Part shown: positions 15,302-26,455 of the stretch, one piece after another
Numbering within the stretch: the stretch's first letter is position 1
How the letters are laid out: each line of letters starts with the position of its first letter
Assembly: GCA_049675585.1 (NCBI GenBank)
Contig: JBAUAJ010000102.1
Location: 109-64,108 of the forward strand
Reading direction: 5' to 3'
Length of the DNA: 64,000 bases
DNA from: Thermoplasmata archaeon
Lineage (GTDB): Archaea; Thermoplasmatota; Thermoplasmata; Lutacidiplasmatales; UBA184
The notes under the pieces: model-generated
What the model saw: the letters and a program-made list of their open reading frames with translations, nothing else
Told to the model about the DNA's origin: nothing
Database searches by the model: none
Position numbers and translations under genes: made by a program

Positions 15302-15982
15302 GTGGAGCTCTTCAACAGGAACGTTACTCTTCTGAGGTTCCCTGGCGGGGGGGCCTTTTCGAAGAAGATTCTCGCGACCCGGGCCGCCTCGGCTGAGAGC
15401 GAGCCCCGAGTTTCCCGGATCTCGCCGCCCTCGACGTTTCCCGTGAAGAGACGGGGGGTCGTGATCACTGTTCAGGTGCCAACCCGAGTAGGGGGCCTTG
15501 AGCTCGTCTCCGACGAAATCCGCTACGCCCCTCAACACTTTGTCGTTCCGAGCTTGGTGTACGTCCTCGACGGTCCGGACGCGTCGACCGAGATTCTTGG
15601 CTATCGAAGGGGTGCGATTCGCGCCCTGCTCAGTTCCACGTTTTCCGGTCAGGACGCCGGTCCCCCGGAACCTCAGGCGCTGCGGCCGATCTCCCGGATA
15701 TTCCGGAAGGGTGATGTCTTGCTCAGGGCCCGCTACGTCCTCAAAGGCGGGCGCGCTGATGAACCGATTATCCGGACGGATACCGGGCGGAACCTGCCAT
15801 TCGAAGATCTCGTGAAGGTTGCGGACCCGGTCGAATCCATCACGATTCAAGCTCCCACGAATCGAGGGAGCCTCACGTTCAGAGTAGATTACGGTACGAG
15901 TAGCGTGAGTTTCTATAATTCTAGCCGCGTGCCTCTATCGTGGGATGACGTCTTCCAGACTGTCGATAAGCGCCTGTTCTGA
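15302..15982 (+). CDS. Hypothetical protein, first gene of the low-GC island
   Basis: Third-position G/C bias favours the + frame over the antisense ORF 15290..15850. The stop lies 11 nt before the next gene. No recognisable domain. Confidence 0.45.
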   Translation: MELFNRNVTLLRFPGGGAFSKKILATRAASAESEPRVSRISPPSTFPVKRRGVVITVQVPTRVGGLELVSDEIRYAPQHFVVPSLVYVLDGPDASTEILGYRRGAIRALLSSTFSGQDAGPPEPQALRPISRIFRKGDVLLRARYVLKGGRADEPIIRTDTGRNLPFEDLVKVADPVESITIQAPTNRGSLTFRVDYGTSSVSFYNSSRVPLSWDDVFQTVDKRLF

Positions 15983-15993
15983 GTCCGGGGTGG

Positions 15994-16461
15994 GTGGCGA
16001 TGTCGAATCTTGATGAATTTGGGAAGGGCGCGCTCGAGAAGAAGGCGAACACGGTCCACTCTTCCCCCCTTCATACCCTGACTCTGCTCTTTATCGGGAA
16101 ACAGGGAGTTGCGACGTGGCCTCAATTGGAGTCCTCTCTGGCCATGATCGGATGTGATGATGCCGTCGCGGCCACCCTCGTTGGTCAACTCGAAAAGTTG
16201 GGACTTCTGATCGACCATTCGAGCTCCGCCGTGAGTCACCTATCGATACTAAAGCTAACAGACGAGGGTCGGGAGGTTGTCAATCTCATCGGGCCCTTGG
16301 AAAGAACCCAAGGATACCCGGTAACGCACCTGTTTGTAACTCTCGCGGTTGGGAGGAGGATAGTGGCGCGAAACCCGAAGTACGTGAACTCGAACCTTCT
16401 TCCAGCAGTCTCTTCTCTCGTCGACGACCTAATGGATAAGGTGGTTGCGCCCCAGGCCTAA
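15994..16461 (+). CDS. Winged-helix (MarR/PadR-like) DNA-binding protein
   Basis: LTLLFIGKQGVATWPQLESSL ... LVGQLEKLGLLIDHS ... LKLTDEGREV is a wHTH pattern. The ATG at 16000, preceded by GGTGG, is an alternative start. The stop overlaps the next start (TAATG at 16459-16463). Confidence 0.55.
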   Translation: MAMSNLDEFGKGALEKKANTVHSSPLHTLTLLFIGKQGVATWPQLESSLAMIGCDDAVAATLVGQLEKLGLLIDHSSSAVSHLSILKLTDEGREVVNLIGPLERTQGYPVTHLFVTLAVGRRIVARNPKYVNSNLLPAVSSLVDDLMDKVVAPQA

Positions 16462-18653
16462 TGTCGACCGCACTGCCCCCGTGGGTAGTAGATGCGGTCC
16501 GTTCAGGGAAACTCGCCCTCTTTCTTGGCGCGGGATTTGGGAGCTTGGCGCGTTTGCCGAGCAGCCCAGAAATCGCCAACCTCCTGGCTAGAGACCTCAG
16601 AGAGAGTGGTGTCGAGGAAACTCGGGTCGCCGAGGCGCTCGGCCGAGGACTGCAAGCCGTGGCCGGGCTCCACGAGATGGAGATTGGCGCCACGCGCTGT
16701 CAGCACCGCGTCGCCGAGATCATCACCGAGGCCGAGAAAGGCGCGGACGAGTCCCTCCCGAAGCTAGTTCACAAACTTGGAACTGTACCGGTTATCACGA
16801 CGAATTACGACTCCTTGTTGATGCGCACCGCGACCTCGCAAAAGAAGTTCAGGGCGATTTGGAAGGGCGCTCAACTCGAGTCCACCTGCGTCGGCATCAA
16901 TTGCTATTACGCCCACGGACTGGCGACGGACCCGGCCTCGATAATTATCACCGACAAACAGTACAACCAGCCACATGATGATCCCTTGGACGAGATGCTT
17001 AGGACCATCCTTCGGACGCACAAGGTCGTATGCTTGGGCTTCTCCGGCCGGGACGAGGATTTCCGGAAGCTCCTATCCCGCCTTTCAGTCGAAGCGAGTG
17101 GTCCCCAGCACCATAGGGGTCTTCTCGTCGTCGGGGCAGGACACGCCACGCAGAAGCAGCCTTACGAGGCGGAGCTCGAAGACTACGGATACGAAATGTG
17201 CCCTCAGGACGCCGGAGACGTTCTCAGGAGTCTCGTCAAACTAACGGAAGAATGGCTTAGGGAATCTCGCCGTGAGGTTGATGAGGAGGTAGTTCGCGAT
17301 CCTCTGCTAAGGAAGCTGAAGGAGGACCCTGCCTCGTTCGAGGACCTCTCGTCGCTGGTCGACCTATCTAGTCCGTTTGGCGCGACAGCCTCCGGCTCGG
17401 ACCCCGTCGCGGAGGTGGTGAGGACTCTCCGTTCCGGCTCCTTTGGTAGTCAGTCCTCAGCCGAAGTGGCAGCCCAGGACTTGATCACGCTTTCCATCGC
17501 TCACGTAAGCCGTGAATCCGGAGCACGGGGCCAGCCACGTCGGTTCGCCTCAACATTGAAACTCCACAAGATCTGCTATTTTGCACGCGAGTACCTTCTG
17601 TCAGTGCCCCTCCAGTTCGAGTTCCAGCGTTACCCGTACGGTGTTTGGTCCCCGGCGCTGGAGAAGTCTATCGACGCGATGGTTGAGGGGGGTCTCATTG
17701 CCCGATTCACGGGTCGTGCGAGTGAGGGAGAGCCCCATCACGAACGCCCGGGTGAGTTCGAGCTTACAAGGGCGGGTGAAGAAGAGTATTCGAAAGCCGA
17801 GAGGCGGCTGCAAGAGGGCCCAGGCGGCCTCGGGCCAGAGAGGGTCACTCAACTCAAAGATTTTGTCTGGTTCCTCTACGGGCAGAAGACCGTGGTACTG
17901 GGACTCGCTTCGAAACGCGACTTCATCGACCGGTCTTGGGGCAAGGAACTCCGAGCAGCGGTGATGACGCGGATTGACTCGGCTCTCAGAGACTTGGCGG
18001 TCAAGGATCCGGAAAAGGAGAAAATCAAGCAGCGCATCGCGGCGGCGCTTTCCCCCACCACCCACGCTGGCGCAGCCATCGCTTGGGGTGATCTAGGTCC
18101 GGACGGAGTCGTACGCGAACTTGCGCGGCGTTCGCCCCGAACCGTGTTCGATCCGAGACGCATCGCTTGGTCCGAGCAGAATGGAGTCCCGACCAATTAC
18201 TACGTGCCATTGGGAGCATATCGCGAGGACAGCTCTGTTGTGCGTTGGGTGACCTCCCGGGTCAAGGAGCTACTTCCGAAAGACTGTGCAGCTATCGTCG
18301 TTCTCGCCGATGGGATCGCTTTTGACGCCGCCAAAAGCGTCGCTGTCGAGAGACACAATGTGCGAGTAATCGGTCCCGTAGGGGGTGAATCCGTCCTGTC
18401 CGAGCACCCCGAGTTGGGGGCTCTCAGGGGTGTTCGGGTTGCAGTCATGACCAACGCCACGCAGACTGGCAGAAGCGCCGGGTCGGTGGTTCAACGTCTA
18501 AAAGAAGTGGGATTGAACGTGGGCCCGGTCATCGCGATCGCCGACCGCGGCGTGGGGGCTTCGGAGCATCTAGCAGCGCAGGGCGTTCGACTCGAGGCCC
18601 TATTGCGGAAGAGCGACCTAATCGACATCGTGAGAGTCGCATATGTTGCTTGA
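16461..18653 (+). CDS. Three-part fusion: SIR2-like NADase domain, Panacea/DUF4065-like domain, degenerate orotate-PRTase-like domain
   Basis: SIR2_2 motifs: LALFLGAGFGS (aa 18-28), VITTNYDSLL (N115), YYAHG (H152), VVCLGFSGRDEDF. Middle region aa ~340-415: TLKLHKICYFAREYLL...FEFQRYPYGVWSPAL. The C-terminus aa ~590-730 is collinear with the OPRT fold (VRVAVMTNATQTGRS ... IAIADRGVGASEHLAAQGVRLEALL), but the acidic PRPP-loop pair is replaced by TN. Confidence 0.8.
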   Translation: MSTALPPWVVDAVRSGKLALFLGAGFGSLARLPSSPEIANLLARDLRESGVEETRVAEALGRGLQAVAGLHEMEIGATRCQHRVAEIITEAEKGADESLPKLVHKLGTVPVITTNYDSLLMRTATSQKKFRAIWKGAQLESTCVGINCYYAHGLATDPASIIITDKQYNQPHDDPLDEMLRTILRTHKVVCLGFSGRDEDFRKLLSRLSVEASGPQHHRGLLVVGAGHATQKQPYEAELEDYGYEMCPQDAGDVLRSLVKLTEEWLRESRREVDEEVVRDPLLRKLKEDPASFEDLSSLVDLSSPFGATASGSDPVAEVVRTLRSGSFGSQSSAEVAAQDLITLSIAHVSRESGARGQPRRFASTLKLHKICYFAREYLLSVPLQFEFQRYPYGVWSPALEKSIDAMVEGGLIARFTGRASEGEPHHERPGEFELTRAGEEEYSKAERRLQEGPGGLGPERVTQLKDFVWFLYGQKTVVLGLASKRDFIDRSWGKELRAAVMTRIDSALRDLAVKDPEKEKIKQRIAAALSPTTHAGAAIAWGDLGPDGVVRELARRSPRTVFDPRRIAWSEQNGVPTNYYVPLGAYREDSSVVRWVTSRVKELLPKDCAAIVVLADGIAFDAAKSVAVERHNVRVIGPVGGESVLSEHPELGALRGVRVAVMTNATQTGRSAGSVVQRLKEVGLNVGPVIAIADRGVGASEHLAAQGVRLEALLRKSDLIDIVRVAYVA

Positions 18654-19335
18654 GCTCCACGACCAGCCGCTCGCCGGCAGGATCAAGGTGGGAGGCCTGC
18701 TCTACGGCGATTTCTTGACGACCCAGTATGAACCGACGCACTACTTCGTTACATTGAACGAGCTCGTAATTCAGGATGAGTTCGCGAGCGCGGTCGTATC
18801 CGCTACCCATGACCCTCGCGTATCTGAGCATTCTGTGGGTTTTAGTGGAATGAAGGGCGTTGGCCCGCTGGAAGCATGCGACGTCGTGCTGGGCTTGGCT
18901 TGGGCCCCCGAGACGATTCTACTCGGCAACAAACTCGCAACGTCTCTCGGCAAGAAGTTCGGTTTTGTTGAGTATGCTCGCCCCCGGTACGCCGCGGCAA
19001 GGTTTCGAGCAGATGACGTCCGCTGTTGCCGCCTGAAAGCCGACGAGAGGGTTGTTGTCATTGACGACGTCTGTGTCACCGGGGACGGACTCGCTCAAGC
19101 TTGCGGAGTAGTTCGGGACTACGGGGCGACTCCCTATGGGTTGGTTGTCGTGGCTCGTGGATCGGCAGAAACAATTCAGGGTCCGATGGCGGGAAACGAC
19201 GTCCTCGTCCTCGTAAGCCCTGAAGATATCGGGACCCCCACCGGACCGACCTACGTACCGCTCGACATCGCGAAGATCGAGGCGCAGCGGGGAGGCCCGA
19301 GAGCCCCAGCTGCACGTCAGCCTCCAAGCAGCTAG
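18643..19335 (+). CDS. Orotate-phosphoribosyltransferase-like type I PRTase
   Basis: N-terminal GGLLYGDFLTTQYEPTHYFVTLNEL (compare the OPRT pattern FGEFxLxSGxxSPxYxD). Intact PRPP loop ERVVVIDDVCVTGDG (D141-D142, nt 19063-19068). The ATG overlaps the upstream stop by 11 nt. Confidence 0.75.
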   Translation: MLLELHDQPLAGRIKVGGLLYGDFLTTQYEPTHYFVTLNELVIQDEFASAVVSATHDPRVSEHSVGFSGMKGVGPLEACDVVLGLAWAPETILLGNKLATSLGKKFGFVEYARPRYAAARFRADDVRCCRLKADERVVVIDDVCVTGDGLAQACGVVRDYGATPYGLVVVARGSAETIQGPMAGNDVLVLVSPEDIGTPTGPTYVPLDIAKIEAQRGGPRAPAARQPPSS

Positions 19336-19370: not shown

Positions 19371-20378
19371 GTGCCGGAGAATCTCCCGAGGTTCGCATTC
19401 TACTACCCGGGCCCAATTTGGGCGGATGCGGGCTGGATCAAGAATCTCATTCTCTACTTCGATGGAGTGGCCCTGCTCGTTCCCAGCTACTTGCGGACCA
19501 AGCCGTTCGATGTTGGTGGGACCACCGCGGCTGAGCTGCAGCAGGCTGGTTTGCTCAAAATACTCGAACCTGAGTCGTTCATCGACAAGAAATCCGTAAA
19601 GGAGCTCAGTCAGTCCCTATCGGCGATCCTCGAATCCGGTAAGCTCGATAAGCTGTCTACGGAGCATACGGTATTCGCTGAGCTATCATATTCACGTCTG
19701 GGCAGTGCCGCCGACGAGCGGCTCGCCGAGGAAGTCTATCGCGAGCTATCGAAGCGGGGGCTTGCAAAGGAAAGCGAGGACGGCGTGTCGATCCCAATGC
19801 ACCCATCGGTTAGGGCACTTATTCTCGTTCTTTGGTCACAAATCCTTCGACCGATCGGAAGGAAGCACGGCCTGGACCTGCAACCCGCGACTGACAGACC
19901 ACAAATGAACCAGGCCCTGGAGGAACTCCTTGGCCTCCGAGCCGTCCCTTCGCCCAGTGACGTAATCTCCTGCGATACCATTTCGGCCGGCGTCGACTTG
20001 GCTAACGCCCCCATTTCCAAGGTCCTAGCGTTTCGCGAGAAACATCACGAAGAATTCGGGGAGTACGCGCGGGACCTACATCGGTTCGTCCACGACATGA
20101 GCTGCCTCGCGACCGAACCGCGAGCTGAGGCATTTGCTGACAGACAGGAAGAGATCAAGGAGGCAGCGGGAAAACTCAGATCGATGTCTCGACGAGCGTG
20201 GGCAGGACGCGCTGCGTTCGGTCTGGGGATTCTTGGGGCAGCATGGAACATCAAACGAGGGGATGTCATTGGCGGCGCTCTCTCGGCCGGTGCGGGCCTC
20301 ACGGGCGCGGCGGCAACGAGACCGTCCGAAGCCTCCGCGTACTCCTACCTTTTCAGAGCTTCGAAAAGCCTCAACTGA
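19371..20378 (+). CDS. Hypothetical protein with a C-terminal glycine-zipper-like hydrophobic segment
   Basis: GTG start with GAGGGTG upstream. The C-terminus reads AAFGLGILGAAWNIKRGDVIGGALSAGAGLTGAAA. A T5 tract at 20506-20510 follows and may be a terminator. Confidence 0.6.
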   Translation: MPENLPRFAFYYPGPIWADAGWIKNLILYFDGVALLVPSYLRTKPFDVGGTTAAELQQAGLLKILEPESFIDKKSVKELSQSLSAILESGKLDKLSTEHTVFAELSYSRLGSAADERLAEEVYRELSKRGLAKESEDGVSIPMHPSVRALILVLWSQILRPIGRKHGLDLQPATDRPQMNQALEELLGLRAVPSPSDVISCDTISAGVDLANAPISKVLAFREKHHEEFGEYARDLHRFVHDMSCLATEPRAEAFADRQEEIKEAAGKLRSMSRRAWAGRAAFGLGILGAAWNIKRGDVIGGALSAGAGLTGAAATRPSEASAYSYLFRASKSLN

Positions 20379-20537: not shown

Positions 20538-21968
20538 ATGAATACCGGCGAGACGTTTGACCAATTCCGATCCGCCATCGAACGGTGTCGAGGGCTTTGG
20601 AGGTCCATCGAGGTCAGCTCCCTCGCCGCCAAGAGGGGGGGGACGCTCTACAACTCGATCACGGCCGTGCGACTTCGCCCCGAGCTCCCCGAGGAAATCC
20701 CGAAGCTCCAATCCATCGAGGTGGAGCGGCTCCTCGCCGGCCGGGTAATCTACCCCATCGCCAAGCTGGAGGAAACCCTGAGGTCAATCCAGTCGGACCA
20801 AATCCCGTTCGGCACGGTGACGCTTTCCCTGGAGAATCCACCCGACCCACCCGCTAACCAGGAATCGTTCCCCACGGGCATGTACAACTGGTACTTTCGG
20901 GACCTAGATGCTCCCCAAGGTAACTGCTGGCGAGCCACCAGCCCGCCGTCGCGCAGCTTCGAGCTCCACGGCAATAGTCAGTCCCCCATGCGCAGGTTTT
21001 GGTCCAACTCGGAATGGAAGTTCCTCGAGGACAGTCTCGCCTTCAACGACCCTCCCGCCGCGGACCTGGCGGACCTGGCCCAGCACGTCGTGCGTTGGGA
21101 CTGCGGGTTCGACAACTGGAACACCCAGCCGAACGTCGCGATCATCGCCCCGCTCTACTCGGCATTCGGTCCCGAAGTGATAGCATCCAAGACGAGCGTG
21201 ACGGTCCGGGCATCCGGTCCGAGCAGCGCGTCCATCGACGACTTCTCCATCGCTTCGGTTGTCCGGGGCCAGGAATCAATCGAGCGGACCCTTCACCGAT
21301 CGGGCAATCTCCAAGTCTCCACCTCAACACCGAGGCTGGAGTTCGGCGTCGAGATTCCCGCCGCCGACGGCCTGTGGCTCGATGCGAGCCTCCTTTTCCG
21401 AGGATTGAAGGCCGGTAGGATCACTATCCCGATCTCGTCGGAGAACCCTCGGATCCTTGCTCACGCTCACTTCGACCACGAGTGGGGCCTGATCAACGAC
21501 GCACTCGGACAAGGACAGAAGCAGCCGGATGCCCGAAAATTCGAGGTCGGGGTCGGTTGGCTCTTCCACCTCCTTGGGTTCCAGGTCGCCAACTACGGAT
21601 TGAAAGAGCTCAAACCCGACGAAGAGGTGGACATCCTTGCGTCCGTTCCATTCAGGCCCAAGGTCCTGGCCTTGGAGGTTACCACCCGGAGCCCGATGAA
21701 CCGGGACAAACTAGTCAAACTCCGGAAGCGCGTCGACGACCTGGCCCCGGTTCTCCAAGGGGTCGAGGTGCTTGGGGCCTTCGTGTCGGCCCACCCCTCT
21801 CCGTTCGATATCGAGGTGACCGATGCTCATTCCCTCGGATTGGGAGCCATATACGGGCAGGACCTCGACCGGCTCCTAGGAGATGCCATCGCTAACCGGA
21901 CTGCGGAGGAGTTCTTCGAGCAGTTGAAGCGCAAGCTTCAGGATCCTAACTCCCAGGGCGTGGGCTGA
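20538..21968 (+). CDS. Hypothetical protein with a C-terminal PD-(D/E)xK (Mrr-like) nuclease-fold region
   Basis: aa ~335-383: FEVGVGWLFHLLGFQVANYGLKELKPDEEVDILASVPFRPKVLALEVTT follows the Mrr-type E...D...ExK layout, but Thr sits at the canonical Lys position. Confidence 0.6.
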   Translation: MNTGETFDQFRSAIERCRGLWRSIEVSSLAAKRGGTLYNSITAVRLRPELPEEIPKLQSIEVERLLAGRVIYPIAKLEETLRSIQSDQIPFGTVTLSLENPPDPPANQESFPTGMYNWYFRDLDAPQGNCWRATSPPSRSFELHGNSQSPMRRFWSNSEWKFLEDSLAFNDPPAADLADLAQHVVRWDCGFDNWNTQPNVAIIAPLYSAFGPEVIASKTSVTVRASGPSSASIDDFSIASVVRGQESIERTLHRSGNLQVSTSTPRLEFGVEIPAADGLWLDASLLFRGLKAGRITIPISSENPRILAHAHFDHEWGLINDALGQGQKQPDARKFEVGVGWLFHLLGFQVANYGLKELKPDEEVDILASVPFRPKVLALEVTTRSPMNRDKLVKLRKRVDDLAPVLQGVEVLGAFVSAHPSPFDIEVTDAHSLGLGAIYGQDLDRLLGDAIANRTAEEFFEQLKRKLQDPNSQGVG

Positions 21969-22893: not shown

Positions 22894-23514
22894 TCATCCG
22901 GGAGCTGGCAGAGCTCTGACGGACCTCGTTGGTGGTTCCCGCCTGAGAACGGAGCGAACACCCCCGAGCTTGATGTTCATGCGCTGTGAGATCATCCGTA
23001 GGCTCTCGCCCTGGGCCTTCCGCTCCCGCACCTCACTCGCCACCGACTCGGAGATCCTCCTCGGGGCGCCGAACTTCTTGCCCAGCGCACGTGCCCGGGC
23101 GATGCCCGCCTGGGTCCGCTCCAGGATGAGCTCCCGTTCGAACTCTGCGAGAGCGGCCAGCATATTGCGTTGGAGTCGACCCGTCGGCGTTGACGTGTCG
23201 ATCCCCTGATCGATGACGATCACGCGGGCTCCCGCCGCGTCGGCGTCGTCCCAAAACCTGAGAATCATCCCGAGAGACCTGCCGAGTCGGTCCATCTTCG
23301 AAACGACCACCGCATGGAACTCGCCGGCCATCATCCGCTGCCGGAGTTGATCAAGCTCGGGCCGGTTGTCTCGTACCCCGGAGATCCCGTCATCCCTGAA
23401 GATTGCGACATCGGTCCATCCTCGAGCTTGGCAGTACGCCGTCAACTGGGCGACCTGGGCCTCGGTCGATTGCTCCTTGGTCGAGACCCGGGCGTAGATT
23501 GCCACCCGGGTCAT
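22894..23514 (-). CDS. Small serine recombinase (resolvase/invertase type)
   Basis: MTRVAIYARVSTKEQ catalytic-Ser motif, VVVSKMDRLGRS, and a C-terminal HTH. The ATG overlaps the methyltransferase stop (ATGA at 23511-23514). Confidence 0.9.
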   Translation of the reverse strand: MTRVAIYARVSTKEQSTEAQVAQLTAYCQARGWTDVAIFRDDGISGVRDNRPELDQLRQRMMAGEFHAVVVSKMDRLGRSLGMILRFWDDADAAGARVIVIDQGIDTSTPTGRLQRNMLAALAEFERELILERTQAGIARARALGKKFGAPRRISESVASEVRERKAQGESLRMISQRMNIKLGGVRSVLRREPPTRSVRALPAPG

Positions 23515-24920
23515 GCGGAAGCCTCTCCTGCCCTCGCGACTCTCGCGGTGGCCGCATCAGCCCGCTCTCGGGCCAGCACTGCGTACTCGGGGTTGAGATC
23601 GACGCCAATCGAGCGTCGGCCCAGCCGACGCGCCACGGCCAGCACCGTCCCGCTGCCCACGAACGGGTCGAGGACGAGGCAGGGGGCAGTTTCCCGGGTC
23701 GCGCATGCGCAGGCTCTCCGGAAGCCGAGGTCGACCCTACGGTAGGTCCCGTCGTGGATGCCACGGACCGCGATCCCCTGACCACGACCGACAGCGAGCG
23801 ACTTATCCGGGAACCAATCGTGGCCAATCCCTCCGCCCCGCGCGACGACCTTGTGGAACCAGGGAGTTCCGCACGTCGCGCACGCGCCACGCTCCGAGGT
23901 CCCGGCCCGAATGCAGACCTCCGCGAGCGCCTCCGGGAACGTCGCGAAGTGGGCACCCGGGTAGGGCTGCGTGGCGATCTGCCAGACTGACCGAAGGTTA
24001 CGCCCCTTCGGGTCGGTATTCGTCAGCATCGGAAACCGACGAAAGTCGCCCGTCTGGTGCTTGGACGTATAGCGGGGGTTGTCCCGCGGGTTCGGGACGT
24101 GGTGACGGAGCCGGCGCAGCGAACTCTCGTGCAGCGGCTCGCGCACCGCCTGGGCGTCGTAGAAGTACCGTCTCGATTTCGTCAGCTGGAAGACGTATTC
24201 GTGCGACCGGGTCGGCCGGTCGCGCACCGGCTCCGGCATCGGGTTCCGCTTCGCCCAGACGATGTCGGAGCGGAGGTACCAGCCGCGGCGCTGGAGCTCG
24301 AAGGCGACCTTCCACGGGATTCCGACCAGGTCCTTCTCCTTCAGCCCGGGCGACCGCTTGTCGATTGAGCCGGCTTGCTCGGCCCCGGTGTGGTCCCGGA
24401 TCCTGAGCCGGGAGCACTTCCAGCGTCTTGGCCCCGTCAGTCCTGCCGGGTGAGTGCAGTACGTGTCCCCCAGGTTCAACCAGAGGGAACCATCGGCGCG
24501 GAGGACCCGCCAGACCTCGTCGAGGACGTCCGCGAGGTGGTCGACGTAGAGATCGGGTGTGGGCTCGAGACCAAGCTCACCTCGCCAGGCACCGCAGTCC
24601 GTGCAGGACTCCGAGAGGCGAGGCGAGCGTGTGGCCGAGGCCCGGTTCAGTGTCTCGGCGACCATCGGGTGGGTGGTCTGGCCGTTTCCCGAGGGGACGA
24701 GGACGGTCGACCACCGATGGAGGCACTCAACGCTGCCACCCCAGACCTGAGGCTCGGTTCCGTAGGTTCGAAGCCCCCAGTAGGGTGGTGACGTGACGAC
24801 GCAGTGGACCGACTCGGCGAGCAGGGTGCGGAGGACGTCGATGACGTGCCCCTGTCGAATGGTGGGCCGGAGACTCTTCAGGACCGCGGTCAGGGTACCG
24901 CCCCCTGCCAGCGCTGCCAT
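23511..24920 (-). CDS. Beta-class DNA methyltransferase (N4-cytosine or N6-adenine, SPPY type)
   Basis: Motif IV VVTSPPYWG precedes motif I VLDPFVGSGTVLAVARRLGRRSIGVDLNPEY. No restriction endonuclease is recognisable nearby. Confidence 0.85.
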   Translation of the reverse strand: MAALAGGGTLTAVLKSLRPTIRQGHVIDVLRTLLAESVHCVVTSPPYWGLRTYGTEPQVWGGSVECLHRWSTVLVPSGNGQTTHPMVAETLNRASATRSPRLSESCTDCGAWRGELGLEPTPDLYVDHLADVLDEVWRVLRADGSLWLNLGDTYCTHPAGLTGPRRWKCSRLRIRDHTGAEQAGSIDKRSPGLKEKDLVGIPWKVAFELQRRGWYLRSDIVWAKRNPMPEPVRDRPTRSHEYVFQLTKSRRYFYDAQAVREPLHESSLRRLRHHVPNPRDNPRYTSKHQTGDFRRFPMLTNTDPKGRNLRSVWQIATQPYPGAHFATFPEALAEVCIRAGTSERGACATCGTPWFHKVVARGGGIGHDWFPDKSLAVGRGQGIAVRGIHDGTYRRVDLGFRRACACATRETAPCLVLDPFVGSGTVLAVARRLGRRSIGVDLNPEYAVLARERADAATARVARAGEASA

Positions 24921-25168: not shown

Positions 25169-25722
25169 CAGGCCGTTCCCTCTTCGGTCCTGTAGTCCCC
25201 GCGGAGGGCAAGGATCAAGCCGAGTACATCTTCGGGACTGGAACCCCGGAGCGGCGGGGCGCCCGCGATCCGCGCCTTCAACCAGTTCAGGTTGTGACCC
25301 TTCCCGAACTGCTCCGGGCCGTCCCTCCCGTTGGCGTAGAACGCGTCTGCGACGGCCCTCAGCGCGTTGAGCCGGGCCTGCTCGGTCGCCCGGGCCGCCT
25401 CCTCGAGGCGTTGGGTCTCGAGCAGATGGTCTCTCGCCGCCTCCAGGATACGGACGTGTTCTTGGTGCGACCGCAGTTCGGCTTCGATCTTGGTGAGGTC
25501 AGAACCACCGCGGAGTCGGTCGAGGGCCTCTCGCAGGACCCGACTGAGGACCACGTCGGTCTCGCGCGCCCAACGCAGGAGAGTTACTGGAATGGTAACG
25601 GAGACGACAACGGTCTCCCCAACCTTCTCCCAGCGGCGCTCCGGCCCGTGGGCGACTGTCGCAGAAAGGGTCCTGGGAGACCCGGGGTCAACCCGGGTTG
25701 GAAGGGTCGAACTGATTGCCAT
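25168..25722 (-). CDS. Ribbon-helix-helix (CopG-like) domain protein with a coiled-coil tail
   Basis: VVVSVTIPVTLLRWARETDVVLSRVLREALDRL is an RHH pattern. The start is uncertain because the first codons overlap palindrome copy 1. Confidence 0.55.
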   Translation of the reverse strand: MAISSTLPTRVDPGSPRTLSATVAHGPERRWEKVGETVVVSVTIPVTLLRWARETDVVLSRVLREALDRLRGGSDLTKIEAELRSHQEHVRILEAARDHLLETQRLEEAARATEQARLNALRAVADAFYANGRDGPEQFGKGHNLNWLKARIAGAPPLRGSSPEDVLGLILALRGDYRTEEGTA

Positions 25723-25790
25723 TCAGACCCCTCTCTCGGCGTGAACCCGGGTTGGAACCCGGGTTCGGGGACACAGAATCAACCCGGGTT
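25690..25790. repeat. Four copies of the 10-bp palindrome AACCCGGGTT (putative operator or recombination site cluster)
   Basis: Exact copies at 25690-25699, 25744-25753, 25756-25765 and 25781-25790, mostly in the context CAACCCGGGTTGG, at the 5' end of the RHH gene. Confidence 0.9.
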
Positions 25791-26382
25791 GGGGACGGTT
25801 GCCAGCGCCACTCTGACGGAGCGGAGGCTTCACGACCGGGGCGGACGGGGCGGGGATAGGCGGACGGGAGGGGCGTACGACCGGGCCGGACCCGGGACGG
25901 GACGGAACGGGTCGGAGTGCGGGAGCGGTACGGCGTGGGACGGAGAACGGATGCACGTGGCAGAGTGGAGGCGAACGGTACCCGGGACGGAGCTCGATGA
26001 TCCCCTGGGTGAGTCCGCAGACCTCGCAGAACGAGATCCGGAGGGTCGGGTTCCTTCGGATCGGGCTGCGGCACCGGGCGCAGATGAACCGCGGCTCGCA
26101 CCCGGCTTCTGGCTTGGGGGTGACGGTCGGGTTAGCGGACCCGGCCACTCCCCCTGAACAACCAGATGTCCGCCTCCGAGCCGGCCTCGTGGGTGGCGAG
26201 GAGCGGAAAAAGAGGGTGGAATGGGTTGGTCTGGGGCGTTCAGCTACTTGTTCGGAGGTGGGGAGAGGTTGCCGAACGAGTTGCAGAGCGTAGAGCCCGT
26301 TGAGCCGGTCCAGGTCCCTGTGGTCGCCCAAACACGCCGCCGGGGCGATGAGATGGCCAAAACGGGCAGAATCCCTGTCGGA

Positions 26383-26455
26383 TGGGCTCGGCCGGATTTG
26401 AACCGGCGATCTTCGCTGTGTGAGAGCGACGTCGTAACCGCTGGACCACGAGCCC
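26383..26455 (-). tRNA. tRNA-Val (anticodon CAC)
   Basis: Manual fold: acceptor GGGCUCG/CGAGCCC, anticodon stem UCGCU/AGCGA, loop CUCACAC, T arm GCCGG-UUCAAAU-CCGGC, discriminator A. No encoded CCA. Confidence 0.9.

What the first reader, a model, noticed from the sequence alone, without database searches (positions are those of the whole stretch)
18228..18653. Degenerate PRPP loop in the fused PRT-like domain next to an intact paralogous PRTase
The fused domain keeps OPRT-like secondary-structure landmarks (AIVVLADGIAF, VRVAVMT-N-ATQTGRS, IAIADRGVGASEHL). It replaces the two acidic residues that coordinate PRPP/Mg in type I PRTases with Thr-Asn (aa 664-665, within nt 18432-18476). The downstream gene keeps Asp-Asp (nt 19063-19068). 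An inactive sensor or regulatory copy paired with an active copy is a recurrent design in signalling and toxin-antitoxin modules. It would suggest heterodimerisation, since type I PRTases are usually dimers.
Basis: partly seen in the sequence, partly recalled or inferred. Interest (0 to 1): 0.7.

Follow-up and report, generated by a model that had tools for sequence, protein, structure and literature searches.

The report
Inactive enzyme-like pair in defence operon
The flagged stretch is a real orotate-phosphoribosyltransferase-shaped domain that has lost its catalytic acids, and with a second such domain in the next gene it forms the conserved core of a rare, apparently undescribed four-gene anti-phage-type system, here armed with a SIR2 NAD-destroying enzyme.

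Summary
Residues 546-730 of the 730-aa ORF (16461-18653) form an OPRT-like type I PRT fold (AF2 pLDDT 86; Foldseek top 30 hits all OPRTs). Thr664-Asn665 (nt 18450-18455) sit where OPRTs have DD/ED. The next gene (18643-19335) has Asp141-Asp142.

In 12 homologues the first acidic position is never acidic, and the second is N (7) or D (5). The OPRT catalytic Lys loop is also absent. So this is a family trait, not local decay.

The downstream "intact PRTase" is also a diverged OPRT-like domain. It lacks the catalytic loop, scores below Pfam threshold, and keeps DD in only 2 of 8 orthologues.

Both domains belong to a conserved operon, seen in 10 independent loci (GC 0.28-0.66, including a Methanotrichaceae MAG):
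- A: unknown function.
- B: winged helix.
- C: DarG-C-terminal-like domain plus pseudo-OPRT.
- D: OPRT-like domain with or without an effector.

Effectors are swapped between loci: SIR2 fused to C (this window and one other locus), retron-type PRTase, deaminase-EAD7, DRT-type nitrilase, NucC-like nuclease.

Best reading: an undescribed defence-type system in which two OPRT-derived, probably non-catalytic domains pair as a regulatory or sensor core. Pairing and ligand binding are inferred, not shown.

The parts
15302..15982 (+). Gene A, 226 aa, no known domain. First gene of the conserved A-B-C-D operon.
   Evidence: Homologues lie in the same position in L001-L005, L008, L009, L011 and L012 (BLASTP 9e-18 to L003_A, 6e-7 to L002_A; alignment A6). 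No hit in Pfam, PADLOC, PHROGs or PDB.
15994..16461 (+). Gene B, 155 aa, winged-helix (MarR/PadR/MukF-like) protein with a conserved 'GYP' motif. Its stop codon overlaps the ATG of C by 1 nt (TAATG).
   Evidence: Conserved in all loci. Profile A7 hits MukF, PadR and MarR winged helices in PDB at E 2e-3 to 1e-2. The junction sequence was read.
16461..18653 (+). Gene C, 730 aa: a fusion of SIR2, a helical linker, a DarG-C-terminal-like domain and an OPRT-like pseudo-PRTase.
   Evidence: The only full-length homologue among 1.84 billion representatives is P0003 (749 aa, 35% identity).
16461..17255 (+). SIR2_2 NADase-type domain (aa ~1-265). GAGF is at aa 23-26, catalytic Asn115 (TTNYD) at nt 16803-16805, catalytic His152 (AHG) at nt 16914-16916.
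   Evidence: Pfam SIR2_2 scores 64.3 bits against a gathering score of 24.5. PADLOC hits ThsA, PDC-S25, LmuA and Dsr1. In the PDB alignment, 9v0g and its N->A/H->A mutant 9v12 mark these two residues. Coordinates.
17496..18095 (+). Middle domain (aa ~346-545), winged-helix-like and similar to the DarT-binding C-terminal half of antitoxin DarG (KLHKICYF...YPYGVWS).
   Evidence: PADLOC DarG E 8.6e-5. NCBIfam antitoxin_DarG E 6e-3 at model positions 183-238. Family profile A4 against PDB 7yk3_B E 2e-3. L004 C against DarG E 7e-6. All hits are weak. Pfam Panacea/DUF4065 does not hit.
18096..18650 (+). OPRT-like type I PRT-fold domain (aa 546-730), predicted non-catalytic. This is the flagged feature.
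   Evidence: Conserved hood motif PTNYY (Asn579, nt 18195-18197), 5'-phosphate loop TQTGRS (aa 667-672) and ADRG (Arg696, nt 18546-18548). No acidic pair and no catalytic Lys loop.
18450..18455 (+). Thr664-Asn665, at the position of the two PRPP-loop acidic residues of type I PRTases.
   Evidence: Aligned onto DD/ED of OPRTs. The family pattern is [T/A/V/L/F][N/D] in 12/12 homologues.
18643..19335 (+). Gene D, 230 aa, a second diverged OPRT-like domain. It overlaps the end of C by 11 nt.
   Evidence: Profile A5 against PDB OPRT 2yzk E 4.8e-15 over nearly the full length. Orthologues lie in every locus at this position. Pfam PF00156 scores 18.5 bits, below the gathering score of 26.3.
19063..19068 (+). 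Asp141-Asp142 of D, in the PRPP loop.
   Evidence: The pair is not conserved among D orthologues.
19371..20378 (+). Gene E, 335 aa, 35 nt after D. A possible accessory or effector gene; its membership of the system is uncertain.
   Evidence: Weak DUF6236 hit, 22.9 bits against a gathering score of 26.2. No relative in the other loci. Other loci with a short D also carry an extra downstream gene (L001 E; L012 NucC-like).
22894..24920 (-). Context: a serine recombinase (22894-23514) and an N6/N4 DNA methylase (23511-24920) flank the operon. The region has lower GC than the rest of the window.
   Evidence: Pfam Resolvase E 3.5e-44 and N6_N4_Mtase E 4e-40. GC profile.

Best explanation
The flagged stretch is the C-terminal OPRT-fold domain of protein C. 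Protein C is the scaffold protein of a conserved four-gene (A-B-C-D) defence-type system.

Shown:
- The domain has the OPRT fold.
- It lacks both PRPP-loop carboxylates (T664, N665) and the OPRT catalytic Lys loop.
- It keeps the 5'-phosphate loop (T-x-T-G-x-S), the hood motif (PTNY, Asn invariant) and the OPRT base-site Asp-Arg (ADRG, Arg invariant).
- Gene D always begins with a second OPRT-like domain.
- The catalytic modules attached to this pair vary from locus to locus and are drawn from the known pool of defence effectors.
- In the window the effector is a SIR2 domain fused to the N-terminus of C, with its catalytic Asn and His intact.

Inferred:
- The C and D OPRT-like domains associate in the way the two subunits of an OPRT homodimer do.
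- This forms a non-catalytic regulatory core that tethers and restrains the effector. The DarG-C-terminal-like domain may help, as DarG's C-terminal half binds its toxin.
- The conserved pocket residues suggest the core still binds a phosphoribosyl-type ligand, such as a nucleotide monophosphate, PRPP, an ADP-ribose-like molecule or an alarmone. It may therefore act as a sensor.
- On infection the restraint is lifted and SIR2 depletes NAD+, giving abortive infection.
- A (unknown) and B (winged helix) are conserved co-factors, possibly trigger recognition and/or transcriptional control.
For: Fold and loop:
- establish the OPRT fold and place TN on DD/ED.
- One search shows the first acid absent in 12/12 homologues; the second is N in 7 and D in 5.
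- One search shows the Lys-rich catalytic loop of true OPRTs (P0150, P0152) is absent from all C and D domains.
- The near-invariant family columns are T34/N35/Y36, G74, G126 and A150/D151/R152/G155 of A3. By alignment to OPRTs they fall in the hood, the PPi-loop region, the 5'-phosphate loop and the DR motif.

Pairing:
- The D N-terminal domain is OPRT-like (2yzk E 4.8e-15).
- It is related to the C domain (hhalign 97.5%).
- It is present in every locus.
- C and D overlap by 11 nt.

Non-catalytic core:
- In L004 neither domain has a carboxylate (AN and FH).

Defence character:
- Effectors are swapped between loci. These are PRTase_III-A/PF24390 (E 4e-42 and 1.6e-28), deaminase + EAD7, RT-nitrilase (5e-9) and a NucC-like nuclease (2e-21), plus SIR2.
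- Neighbouring genes include BglII, a resolvase, N6_N4 and MmeI-type methylases, TIR, HEPN_AbiV and SLFN_AlbA_2.
- The window operon sits in a low-GC stretch beside a recombinase and a methylase.
- SIR2 has its catalytic Asn115 and His152.
Against: - No direct evidence for C-D heterodimerisation. No multimer model could be run.
- No evidence for ligand binding, and the model coordinates could not be inspected.
- Only about 12 family representatives and 10 loci exist, mostly short metagenomic contigs. Co-occurrence statistics are thin, and no member has been tested against phage.
- A 'TD' PRPP loop is functional in the Retron-Eco11 PRTase effector (PMC12746101). Members with TD/FD might therefore be enzymes, and the window's D (DD) may be catalytic.
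- The DarG-like assignment rests on E-values of 1e-5 to 6e-3.
- The roles of A and B are guesses.
Confidence: 0.5

Rival explanations
1. D is an active PRTase, either a toxin/effector that consumes PRPP or makes an aberrant nucleotide (as ShosT or retron PRTases do) or a metabolic enzyme. The fused TN domain is its inactive paralogue, which heterodimerises with D to inhibit or sense it. C would then be an antitoxin-like partner.
For: - D keeps DD and the TG loop, aligned on the OPRT PRPP loop.
- The L001 orthologue also has DD.
- DD occurs only in 'short' D proteins that carry no fused effector.
- C contains a DarG-C-terminal-like, toxin-binding type domain.
- PRTase toxins are known in defence (PMC11961720, PMC12746101).
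Against: - DD is present in only 2 of 8 D orthologues. Short D proteins in L009 (TD) and L012 (VD) lack it.
- D lacks the OPRT catalytic Lys loop.
- D is below the Pfam and NCBIfam cut-offs and has no PADLOC PRTase hit.
- The window already has a SIR2 effector with an intact active site.
Confidence: 0.2
2. The OPRT-like pair is a signal generator rather than a sensor. On infection it uses PRPP to make an unusual phosphoribosylated small molecule, which then activates the effectors (SIR2, NucC-like nuclease). This would be analogous to Thoeris or CBASS signalling.
For: - One locus has a separate NucC-like nuclease (L012). NucC family members are second-messenger-activated.
- SIR2 effectors in Thoeris are messenger-activated.
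- D retains an Asp at the second loop position in 6/8 orthologues.
- A 'TD' loop can be catalytic.
Against: - L004 has no carboxylate in either domain.
- Both domains lack the catalytic loop.
- In most loci the effectors are covalently fused to C or D, so a diffusible signal is unnecessary.
- The SIR2 here has no separate messenger-binding domain other than the PRT-like one.
Confidence: 0.1
3. The fused C-terminal domain is itself a non-canonical catalytic effector, for example a PRPP-consuming enzyme of the defence-PRTase kind. On this reading Asn665 and the Thr residues suffice, and the domain is not a pseudoenzyme.
For: - The family motif [T]-[D/N]-T-x-x-[T/S]-G resembles the Retron-Eco11 motif TDTIGSG. 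That motif is required for defence and is linked to PRPP depletion.
- Pocket residues are strongly conserved.
Against: - 7 of 12 members, including the window, have Asn and so no carboxylate at all.
- The domain is OPRT-like, not retron-PRTase-like. It has no PADLOC PRTase_III-A or PF24390 hit, and loci L004 and L008 carry a genuine PRTase-CE in addition.
- The catalytic loop is absent.
Confidence: 0.1
4. An ordinary pyrimidine or nucleotide-metabolism regulatory operon, with PyrE/PyrR/PurR-like proteins and no role in conflict.
For: - Both PRT-like domains are closest to OPRT.
- PRT-fold regulators such as PurR and PyrR exist (established knowledge; weak PurR/PyrR hits).
Against: - There are no pyr or pur genes in the operon.
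- NCBIfam pyrE scores 17-21 bits against a cut-off of 106.8.
- The proteins are fused or linked to SIR2, deaminase, nitrilase, retron-type PRTase and a NucC-like nuclease, and they sit in defence islands.
- The distribution is patchy and rare across archaea and bacteria.
Confidence: 0.03

Closest known systems
Orotate phosphoribosyltransferase (PyrE; short archaeal/actinobacterial type, e.g. PDB 2yzk, 5hkf, 2wns)
   Same: - Same fold (TM 0.6-0.74).
- Same hood, 5'-phosphate loop and DR motif.
- Closest sequence and structure relatives of both the C domain and D.
- OPRTs are obligate dimers whose catalytic loop acts across the interface (established knowledge). This makes a C:D heterodimer plausible.
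   Different: - The C domain has no acidic pair, and most D orthologues lack it.
- Neither has the Lys-rich catalytic loop.
- Scores are far below the PyrE equivalog cut-offs.
- The domains are fused to or flanked by defence effectors, not pyr genes.
Thoeris ThsA (SIR2 fused to a SLOG/STALD ligand-sensor domain)
   Same: - A SIR2_2-type NADase fused in one chain to a nucleotide-binding-fold domain.
- The best PADLOC hits of the SIR2 part are ThsA models.
- The proposed logic is the same: a sensor domain gates the NADase.
   Different: - The candidate sensor is an OPRT-fold domain plus a DarG-like domain, not SLOG.
- There is no TIR (ThsB) gene.
- The operon has four conserved genes.
- In most relatives SIR2 is replaced by other effectors.
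DarTG (the C-terminal, DarT-binding half of antitoxin DarG)
   Same: - The middle domain of C weakly matches the non-macro, toxin-binding half of DarG.
- DarG both reverses the modification and binds DarT directly (PMC8832971).
   Different: - No macrodomain and no DarT.
- The similarity is marginal (E 1e-5 to 6e-3).
Defence-associated PRTases: retron type III-A effectors (PF24390 PRTase-CE; Retron-Eco11), ShosT/PsyrT, Ophion OpnC
   Same: - PRT-fold proteins used in anti-phage systems.
- Relatives of this operon (L004, L008) carry a bona fide PRTase_III-A domain fused to D.
- The PRPP loop of Eco11 is 'TD', like 5 of 12 C-domain homologues.
   Different: - The window's two PRT-like domains are OPRT-like and match none of these models.
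- There is no reverse transcriptase or ncRNA, no DprA-like ShosA and no radical-SAM or PHP partner.
Non-catalytic PRT-fold regulators and partners: PurR and PyrR, and the PRPP-synthetase-associated proteins (inactive paralogues in complex with PRPP synthetase)
   Same: - A PRT fold re-used to bind PRPP or nucleotides, or to partner an active paralogue, rather than to catalyse (established knowledge; not tested here).
   Different: - These are housekeeping regulators.
- None is coupled to SIR2 or other suicide effectors, and none occurs in this four-gene arrangement.

Membership tests
Type I phosphoribosyltransferase (PRT fold, Pfam PF00156) | Five-stranded PRT core fold with hood | tested here: met
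   AF2 pLDDT 85.8. Foldseek top hits are all OPRT/APRT, probability 1.00, TM up to 0.74.
Type I phosphoribosyltransferase (PRT fold, Pfam PF00156) | Two adjacent acidic residues in the PRPP loop | tested here: not met
   The fused domain has T664-N665, and the family has [T/A/V/L/F][N/D] in 12/12. The feature is met in window D (D141-D142) but in only 2 of 8 D orthologues.
Type I phosphoribosyltransferase (PRT fold, Pfam PF00156) | 5'-phosphate-binding loop T/S-G-x-T/S after the acidic pair | tested here: met
   TQTGRS in C, with G at least 90% conserved. VTGDG in D.
Type I phosphoribosyltransferase (PRT fold, Pfam PF00156) | Score at or above the Pfam gathering threshold | tested here: not met
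   The C domain gives no hit even at E<=10. D scores 18.5 bits against 26.3.
Orotate phosphoribosyltransferase (PyrE, TIGR00336) | Flexible catalytic loop with conserved Lys (R-K-x-x-K-x-H/Y-G) | tested here: not met
   Present in true OPRTs P0150 and P0152. Absent from all 12 C domains and 6 D domains in the joint alignment.
Orotate phosphoribosyltransferase (PyrE, TIGR00336) | Equivalog score cut-off | tested here: not met
   C scores 17.2 bits and D 21.2 bits, against a cut-off of 106.8.
Orotate phosphoribosyltransferase (PyrE, TIGR00336) | PRPP-dependent OMP synthesis | not testable with these tools
   Needs an enzyme assay.
SIR2_2 defence-type NADase | Pfam SIR2_2 above threshold, with catalytic Asn and His | tested here: met
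   64.3 bits against 24.5. N115 in TTNYD and H152 in AHG align with the residues mutated in PDB 9v12 relative to 9v0g.
Thoeris (ThsA + ThsB) | SLOG/STALD sensor domain in ThsA and an adjacent TIR ThsB gene | tested here: not met
   PADLOC ThsA hits cover only the SIR2 part (model positions 14-216 of 478). No TIR or SLOG hit in any operon protein.
DarTG toxin-antitoxin | DarG macrodomain and a DarT ADP-ribosyltransferase gene | tested here: not met
   Only the C-terminal half of the DarG models is matched, and weakly. No macrodomain or DarT hit.
Panacea (DUF4065, PF13274) antitoxins | Pfam PF13274 match | tested here: not met
   No hit at E<=0.1 in the window protein or in any of 12 homologues.
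Retron type III-A / PRTase-CE (PF24390) systems | PRTase-CE effector with a reverse transcriptase and ncRNA | tested here: not met
   No PF24390 or PRTase_III-A hit in window proteins. No reverse transcriptase, and no Rfam hit. PRTase-CE is present only in relatives L004 and L008, fused to D.
A-B-C-D system defined in this report | Co-linear genes: A (~230-260 aa), B (wHTH, ~135-190 aa), C (DarG-CTD-like + OPRT-like), D (N-terminal OPRT-like) | tested here: met
   The window and L001-L005, L008, L009, L011 and L012 show the full order, and L010 is partial.
A-B-C-D system defined in this report | Physical C:D heterodimer, and protection against phage | not testable with these tools
   Structure jobs were exhausted, and no multimer tool or experiment is available.

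The most novel reading that the evidence does not exclude
A previously undescribed prokaryotic immune system, present in bacteria and archaea. Its invariant core would be a heterodimer of two OPRT-derived pseudoenzymes acting as a phosphoribosyl/nucleotide-sensing switch, assisted by a DarG-like domain, a winged-helix protein and an unknown protein. Interchangeable suicide effectors plug into this core: SIR2, retron-type PRTase, deaminase, nitrilase or a NucC-like nuclease. If so, it would be a first case of a nucleotide-biosynthesis enzyme dimer turned into an immune sensor.
Probability: 0.3. Interest if true: 0.8.

Novelty: new variant of a known kind. Interest (0 to 1): 0.62.

Why it matters
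If the reading holds, it has three consequences:
- It adds a new core architecture to the catalogue of modular anti-phage systems. No model in PADLOC v2, Pfam, NCBIfam or PHROGs recognises genes A, B or D or the C module, and no paper in the searchable library describes the system.
- It gives a clean natural example of pseudoenzyme evolution. An OPRT dimer would have been duplicated into two non-equivalent, apparently non-catalytic halves that organise effectors.
- It offers a testable hypothesis about sensing of the nucleotide/PRPP pool during infection, a theme shared with ShosTA, retron III-A and Thoeris.

For this window alone, it re-annotates a 730-aa 'SIR2 protein' and four hypothetical genes as one candidate defence operon.

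Tried and rejected
- **Word-index homologue searches.** Searches with the fusion, with D and with the family profile returned essentially only the query. The exhaustive representative search was needed.
- **Single-sequence AF2.** The model of the whole 730-aa protein was useless (pLDDT 38).
- **Pfam on sub-regions.** No hit for the middle or C-terminal domains.
- **Panacea/DUF4065.** I recalled it from the KLHKxxYF motif, but no Pfam hit supports it. I downgraded the call to 'DarG-C-terminal-like'.
- **Collection scans.** The search for related loci on genome contigs gave one locus (L002). Metagenome scans (two) and a viral scan gave none. tblastn against plasmids and phages gave none.
- **'Close paralogues' idea.** Rejected at the pairwise level (BLASTP E 0.3). 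The relation is visible only profile-to-profile.
- **Nitrilase assignment for the L011 D C-terminus.** Pfam gave nothing. PADLOC RT-nitrilase gave 5e-9, so the assignment is kept as tentative.
- **Membrane anchor in window E.** Rejected; the maximum Kyte-Doolittle 19-mer average is 1.3.
- **Genes E and F.** No relatives in PDB, Pfam, PADLOC or PHROGs.
- **RNA and signals.** No Rfam family, retron-like ncRNA or notable promoter/terminator signal around the operon.
- **Literature.** Searches for PRTase-CE, for EAD7 with PRTase, and for OPRTase with conflict systems found no description of this system.
Full report
**1.

ORF 16461..18653(+) encodes 730 aa. The next ORF (18643..19335, 230 aa) has Asp141-Asp142 at nt 19063-19068. 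It overlaps the end of the fusion by 11 nt.

Pfam does not see a PRT domain in the fusion at any threshold. Other evidence does:
- phmmer against PDB hits OPRTs (2yzk 1.5e-5, 5hkf 1.9e-5). The alignment reads RVAVMTNATQTGRS on RVVVVDDVATTGTS / RVLVVEDTSTTGNS.
- A profile of 12 family members raises this to 6.5e-11 against human OPRT 2wns.
- An AF2 model built with that alignment is confident (pLDDT 85.8, pTM 0.85).
- Foldseek against PDB returns only OPRTs in the top 30 (E to 4e-9, TM 0.6-0.74). BFVD gives the same picture.

**2. The rest of the fusion**

- Residues ~1-265 are a SIR2_2 domain (64.3 bits against a gathering score of 24.5). The best PADLOC matches are ThsA, PDC-S25, LmuA and Dsr1.
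- The Gly-rich GAGF motif, catalytic Asn115 (TTNYD) and His152 (AHG) are all present. The PDB pair 9v0g and 9v12 differs at exactly these two residues.
- Residues ~346-545 (KLHKICYF...YPYGVWS) weakly match the non-macro, DarT-binding half of antitoxin DarG. The hits are PADLOC 8.6e-5, NCBIfam 6e-3, family profile against PDB 7yk3_B 2e-3, and L004 homologue 7e-6.
- Pfam's Panacea model does not hit, so I call this domain only 'DarG-C-terminal-like'.

**3. The TN loop is a family trait, not decay of this copy**

The exhaustive search of 1.84 billion representatives found only one full-length homologue (P0003, 749 aa, 35% identity). It found about ten proteins of 416-513 aa that match residues ~316-730 without SIR2.

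In the alignment:
- The first acidic position is T, A, V, L or F in 12/12.
- The second position is N in 7 (window TN, VN, AN x4, LN) and D in 5 (TD x4, FD).
- The 5'-phosphate loop (T/S-G-x-S), a hood motif PTNYF (Asn invariant) and ADRG (Arg invariant) are conserved.
- The Lys-rich flexible loop of real OPRTs (P0150, P0152) is absent from every member.

From established knowledge of OPRT, the hood, the 5'-phosphate loop and the Asp-Arg motif line the orotate/OMP site. The catalytic loop Lys and the acidic pair are needed for chemistry. The pattern 'pocket kept, chemistry lost' points to a ligand-binding or structural pseudoenzyme.

Caveat: the Retron-Eco11 PRTase effector has the loop VVILTDTIGSGNQ ('TD') and needs it for defence and PRPP depletion (PMC12746101). 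A missing first acid alone is therefore not proof of inactivity. The window's TN has no carboxylate at all.

**4. The 'intact paralogue' is not what it seemed**

- D matches OPRT weakly on its own (2yzk 3.5e-3). Pfam gives 18.5 bits against 26.3, and NCBIfam pyrE gives 21 bits against 106.8.
- It is not detectably similar to the fused domain pairwise.
- Orthologues of D exist in every related locus. Their profile hits OPRT 2yzk at 4.8e-15 over almost the full length, and it matches the C-domain profile at 97.5% probability. Both are therefore OPRT derivatives.
- The acid pair in D orthologues is DD (window), DD (L001), FH (L004), SD (L005), GD (L008), TD (L009), TP (L011) and VD (L012).
- All of them lack the catalytic loop.
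- In L004 neither C (AN) nor D (FH) has a carboxylate. Catalysis by this pair therefore cannot be the conserved function.

**5. The conserved operon**

Contigs encoding the homologues all show the same order:
- A: 226-263 aa, no known domain, with a C-terminal SFYN...W..F motif.
- B: 136-190 aa, a winged helix of MarR/PadR/MukF type with a GYP motif.
- C: the module described above.
- D: beginning with the OPRT-like domain.

Pairwise BLAST confirms homology of A, B and D across loci (alignments).

The loci span GC 0.28-0.66 and include a Methanotrichaceae archaeon MAG (L002).

The variable part is the effector:

| Locus | Effector | Evidence |
|---|---|---|
| Window, L003 | SIR2 fused to the N-terminus of C | |
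| L004, L008 | Retron type III-A PRTase (PF24390) fused to the C-terminus of D | E 2.8e-42 / 7.6e-33 Pfam; 4e-42 / 1.6e-28 PADLOC |
| L005-7 | Cytidine deaminase + EAD7 fused to the C-terminus of D | |
| L011 | DRT-type nitrilase fused to the C-terminus of D | PADLOC 5e-9 |
| L012 | Separate NucC-like PD-DExK gene after a short D | PADLOC 2e-21 |

Neighbouring genes include a BglII endonuclease, resolvases, N6/N4 and MmeI-type methylases, a TIR protein, HEPN_AbiV and SLFN_AlbA_2.

In the window the operon lies in a stretch of GC 0.59-0.62, against ~0.70 further downstream. It sits beside a serine recombinase and a DNA methylase.

A conserved core with interchangeable suicide effectors inside defence or mobile islands is the signature of an immune or conflict system.

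**6. Mechanism (inferred)**

- OPRTs are dimers whose catalytic loop works across the interface (established knowledge).
- Two co-inherited, translationally coupled OPRT-like domains, each carrying or neighbouring the effector, are most simply explained as a C:D heterodimer. It would tether and restrain the effector.
- The DarG-like domain may add toxin-binding-type inhibition.
- The conserved pocket may allow a phosphoribosyl ligand to switch the complex.
- In the window the output would be NAD+ depletion by SIR2.
- The roles of A and B are unknown. They may act in trigger recognition or regulation.

I give this composite model about 0.5. Its shown parts (fold, loop state, operon, effector swapping, intact SIR2 site) are solid. 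Heterodimerisation, ligand sensing and the defence phenotype are not demonstrated.

The rival explanations are:
- D as an active PRTase toxin with C as its decoy/antitoxin (0.2).
- The pair as a signal generator (0.1).
- The C domain as a non-canonical enzyme (0.1).
- Housekeeping pyrimidine regulation (0.03).

**7. Comparison with known systems**

- The system works like ThsA in fusing SIR2 to a nucleotide-fold domain. It fails Thoeris membership because it has no SLOG and no TIR.
- It resembles DarG only in one weakly matched domain.
- It shares the use of PRT folds with retron III-A, ShosTA, PsyrTA and Ophion (PMC12746101, PMC11961720, 10.1101/2025.09.30.679545). However, the window's PRT-like domains match none of those models.
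- It has no reverse transcriptase or ncRNA and no DprA.
- PADLOC v2, Pfam, NCBIfam and PHROGs have no model for A, B, D or the C module.
- Literature searches found no description.
- The family is rare. There are about 12 representative clusters in 1.84 billion, nothing in plasmid, phage or viral collections, and one hit in 185,579 species genomes.

**8. Verdict**

The pair is real and conserved, but 'inactive sensor + active enzyme' is not the conserved logic.
- The finding leads to a candidate new defence-type system whose core is a pair of OPRT-derived domains.
- Novelty: a new variant of a known kind (a modular defence system with a SIR2 effector). A more novel reading, an OPRT-dimer-derived immune sensor, is not excluded.

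Noticed in passing
P0026 (2016-aa protein from the representative search; not in the window): Two tandem copies of the N-terminal half of the C module (the DarG-like part) are fused to WD40 propellers and HEAT repeats. The copies are very close to P0006 of the Methanotrichaceae MAG. The module therefore also serves as an N-terminal adaptor of a giant conflict-type protein.
   Followed up: partly
L004:2893-4494, L008:5069-6682, L005:9924-11318, L011:10638-12200, L012:9960-10652: The effector at or after gene D differs between loci. It is a retron type III-A PRTase (PF24390), a cytidine deaminase + EAD7, a DRT-type nitrilase or a NucC-like PD-DExK nuclease (DUF6602).
   Followed up: yes
L004 (C = P0005, D = L004:2893-4494): In this locus neither OPRT-like domain has any carboxylate in its PRPP loop (AN in C, FH in D). 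A third, canonical 'VDD' PRTase-CE domain sits at the C-terminus of D.
   Followed up: partly
window 22894-24920 (-) and GC profile 14-24 kb: A serine recombinase (206 aa) and an N6/N4 DNA methylase (469 aa) lie immediately downstream of the operon. GC is 0.59-0.62 over 16-22 kb, against ~0.70 from 26 kb on. This suggests a mobile or defence island; no flanking repeats were found.
   Followed up: partly
window 25676-25794: Three copies of a ~21-nt direct repeat with the palindromic core ACCCGGGT, spaced 54 and 37 nt apart, lie inside the 25294-26157 ORF region near tRNA-Val (26383-26455). Their function is unknown.
   Followed up: no
window 19371-20378 (+) and 20538-21968 (+): Two further same-strand ORFs follow D. 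E (335 aa) has a sub-threshold DUF6236 hit, and F (476 aa) has no hit. Neither has a relative in the other loci or in Pfam, PADLOC, PHROGs or PDB. They could be extra effectors or an unrelated cassette.
   Followed up: partly
L002:9198-9475 (Methanotrichaceae MAG CAWDLW010000019.1): The start of gene D (…IIYGDLITR…) is present after C. It is interrupted by a stop or frameshift within ~100 nt, and the contig ends soon after. This is either an assembly error or gene decay.
   Followed up: no
L014 (Logan SRR28061163 contig, 12,189 bp): The window's A-B-C-D-E genes occur with an identical C protein on a second public assembly contig. The fusion is therefore not an artefact of one assembly.
   Followed up: no
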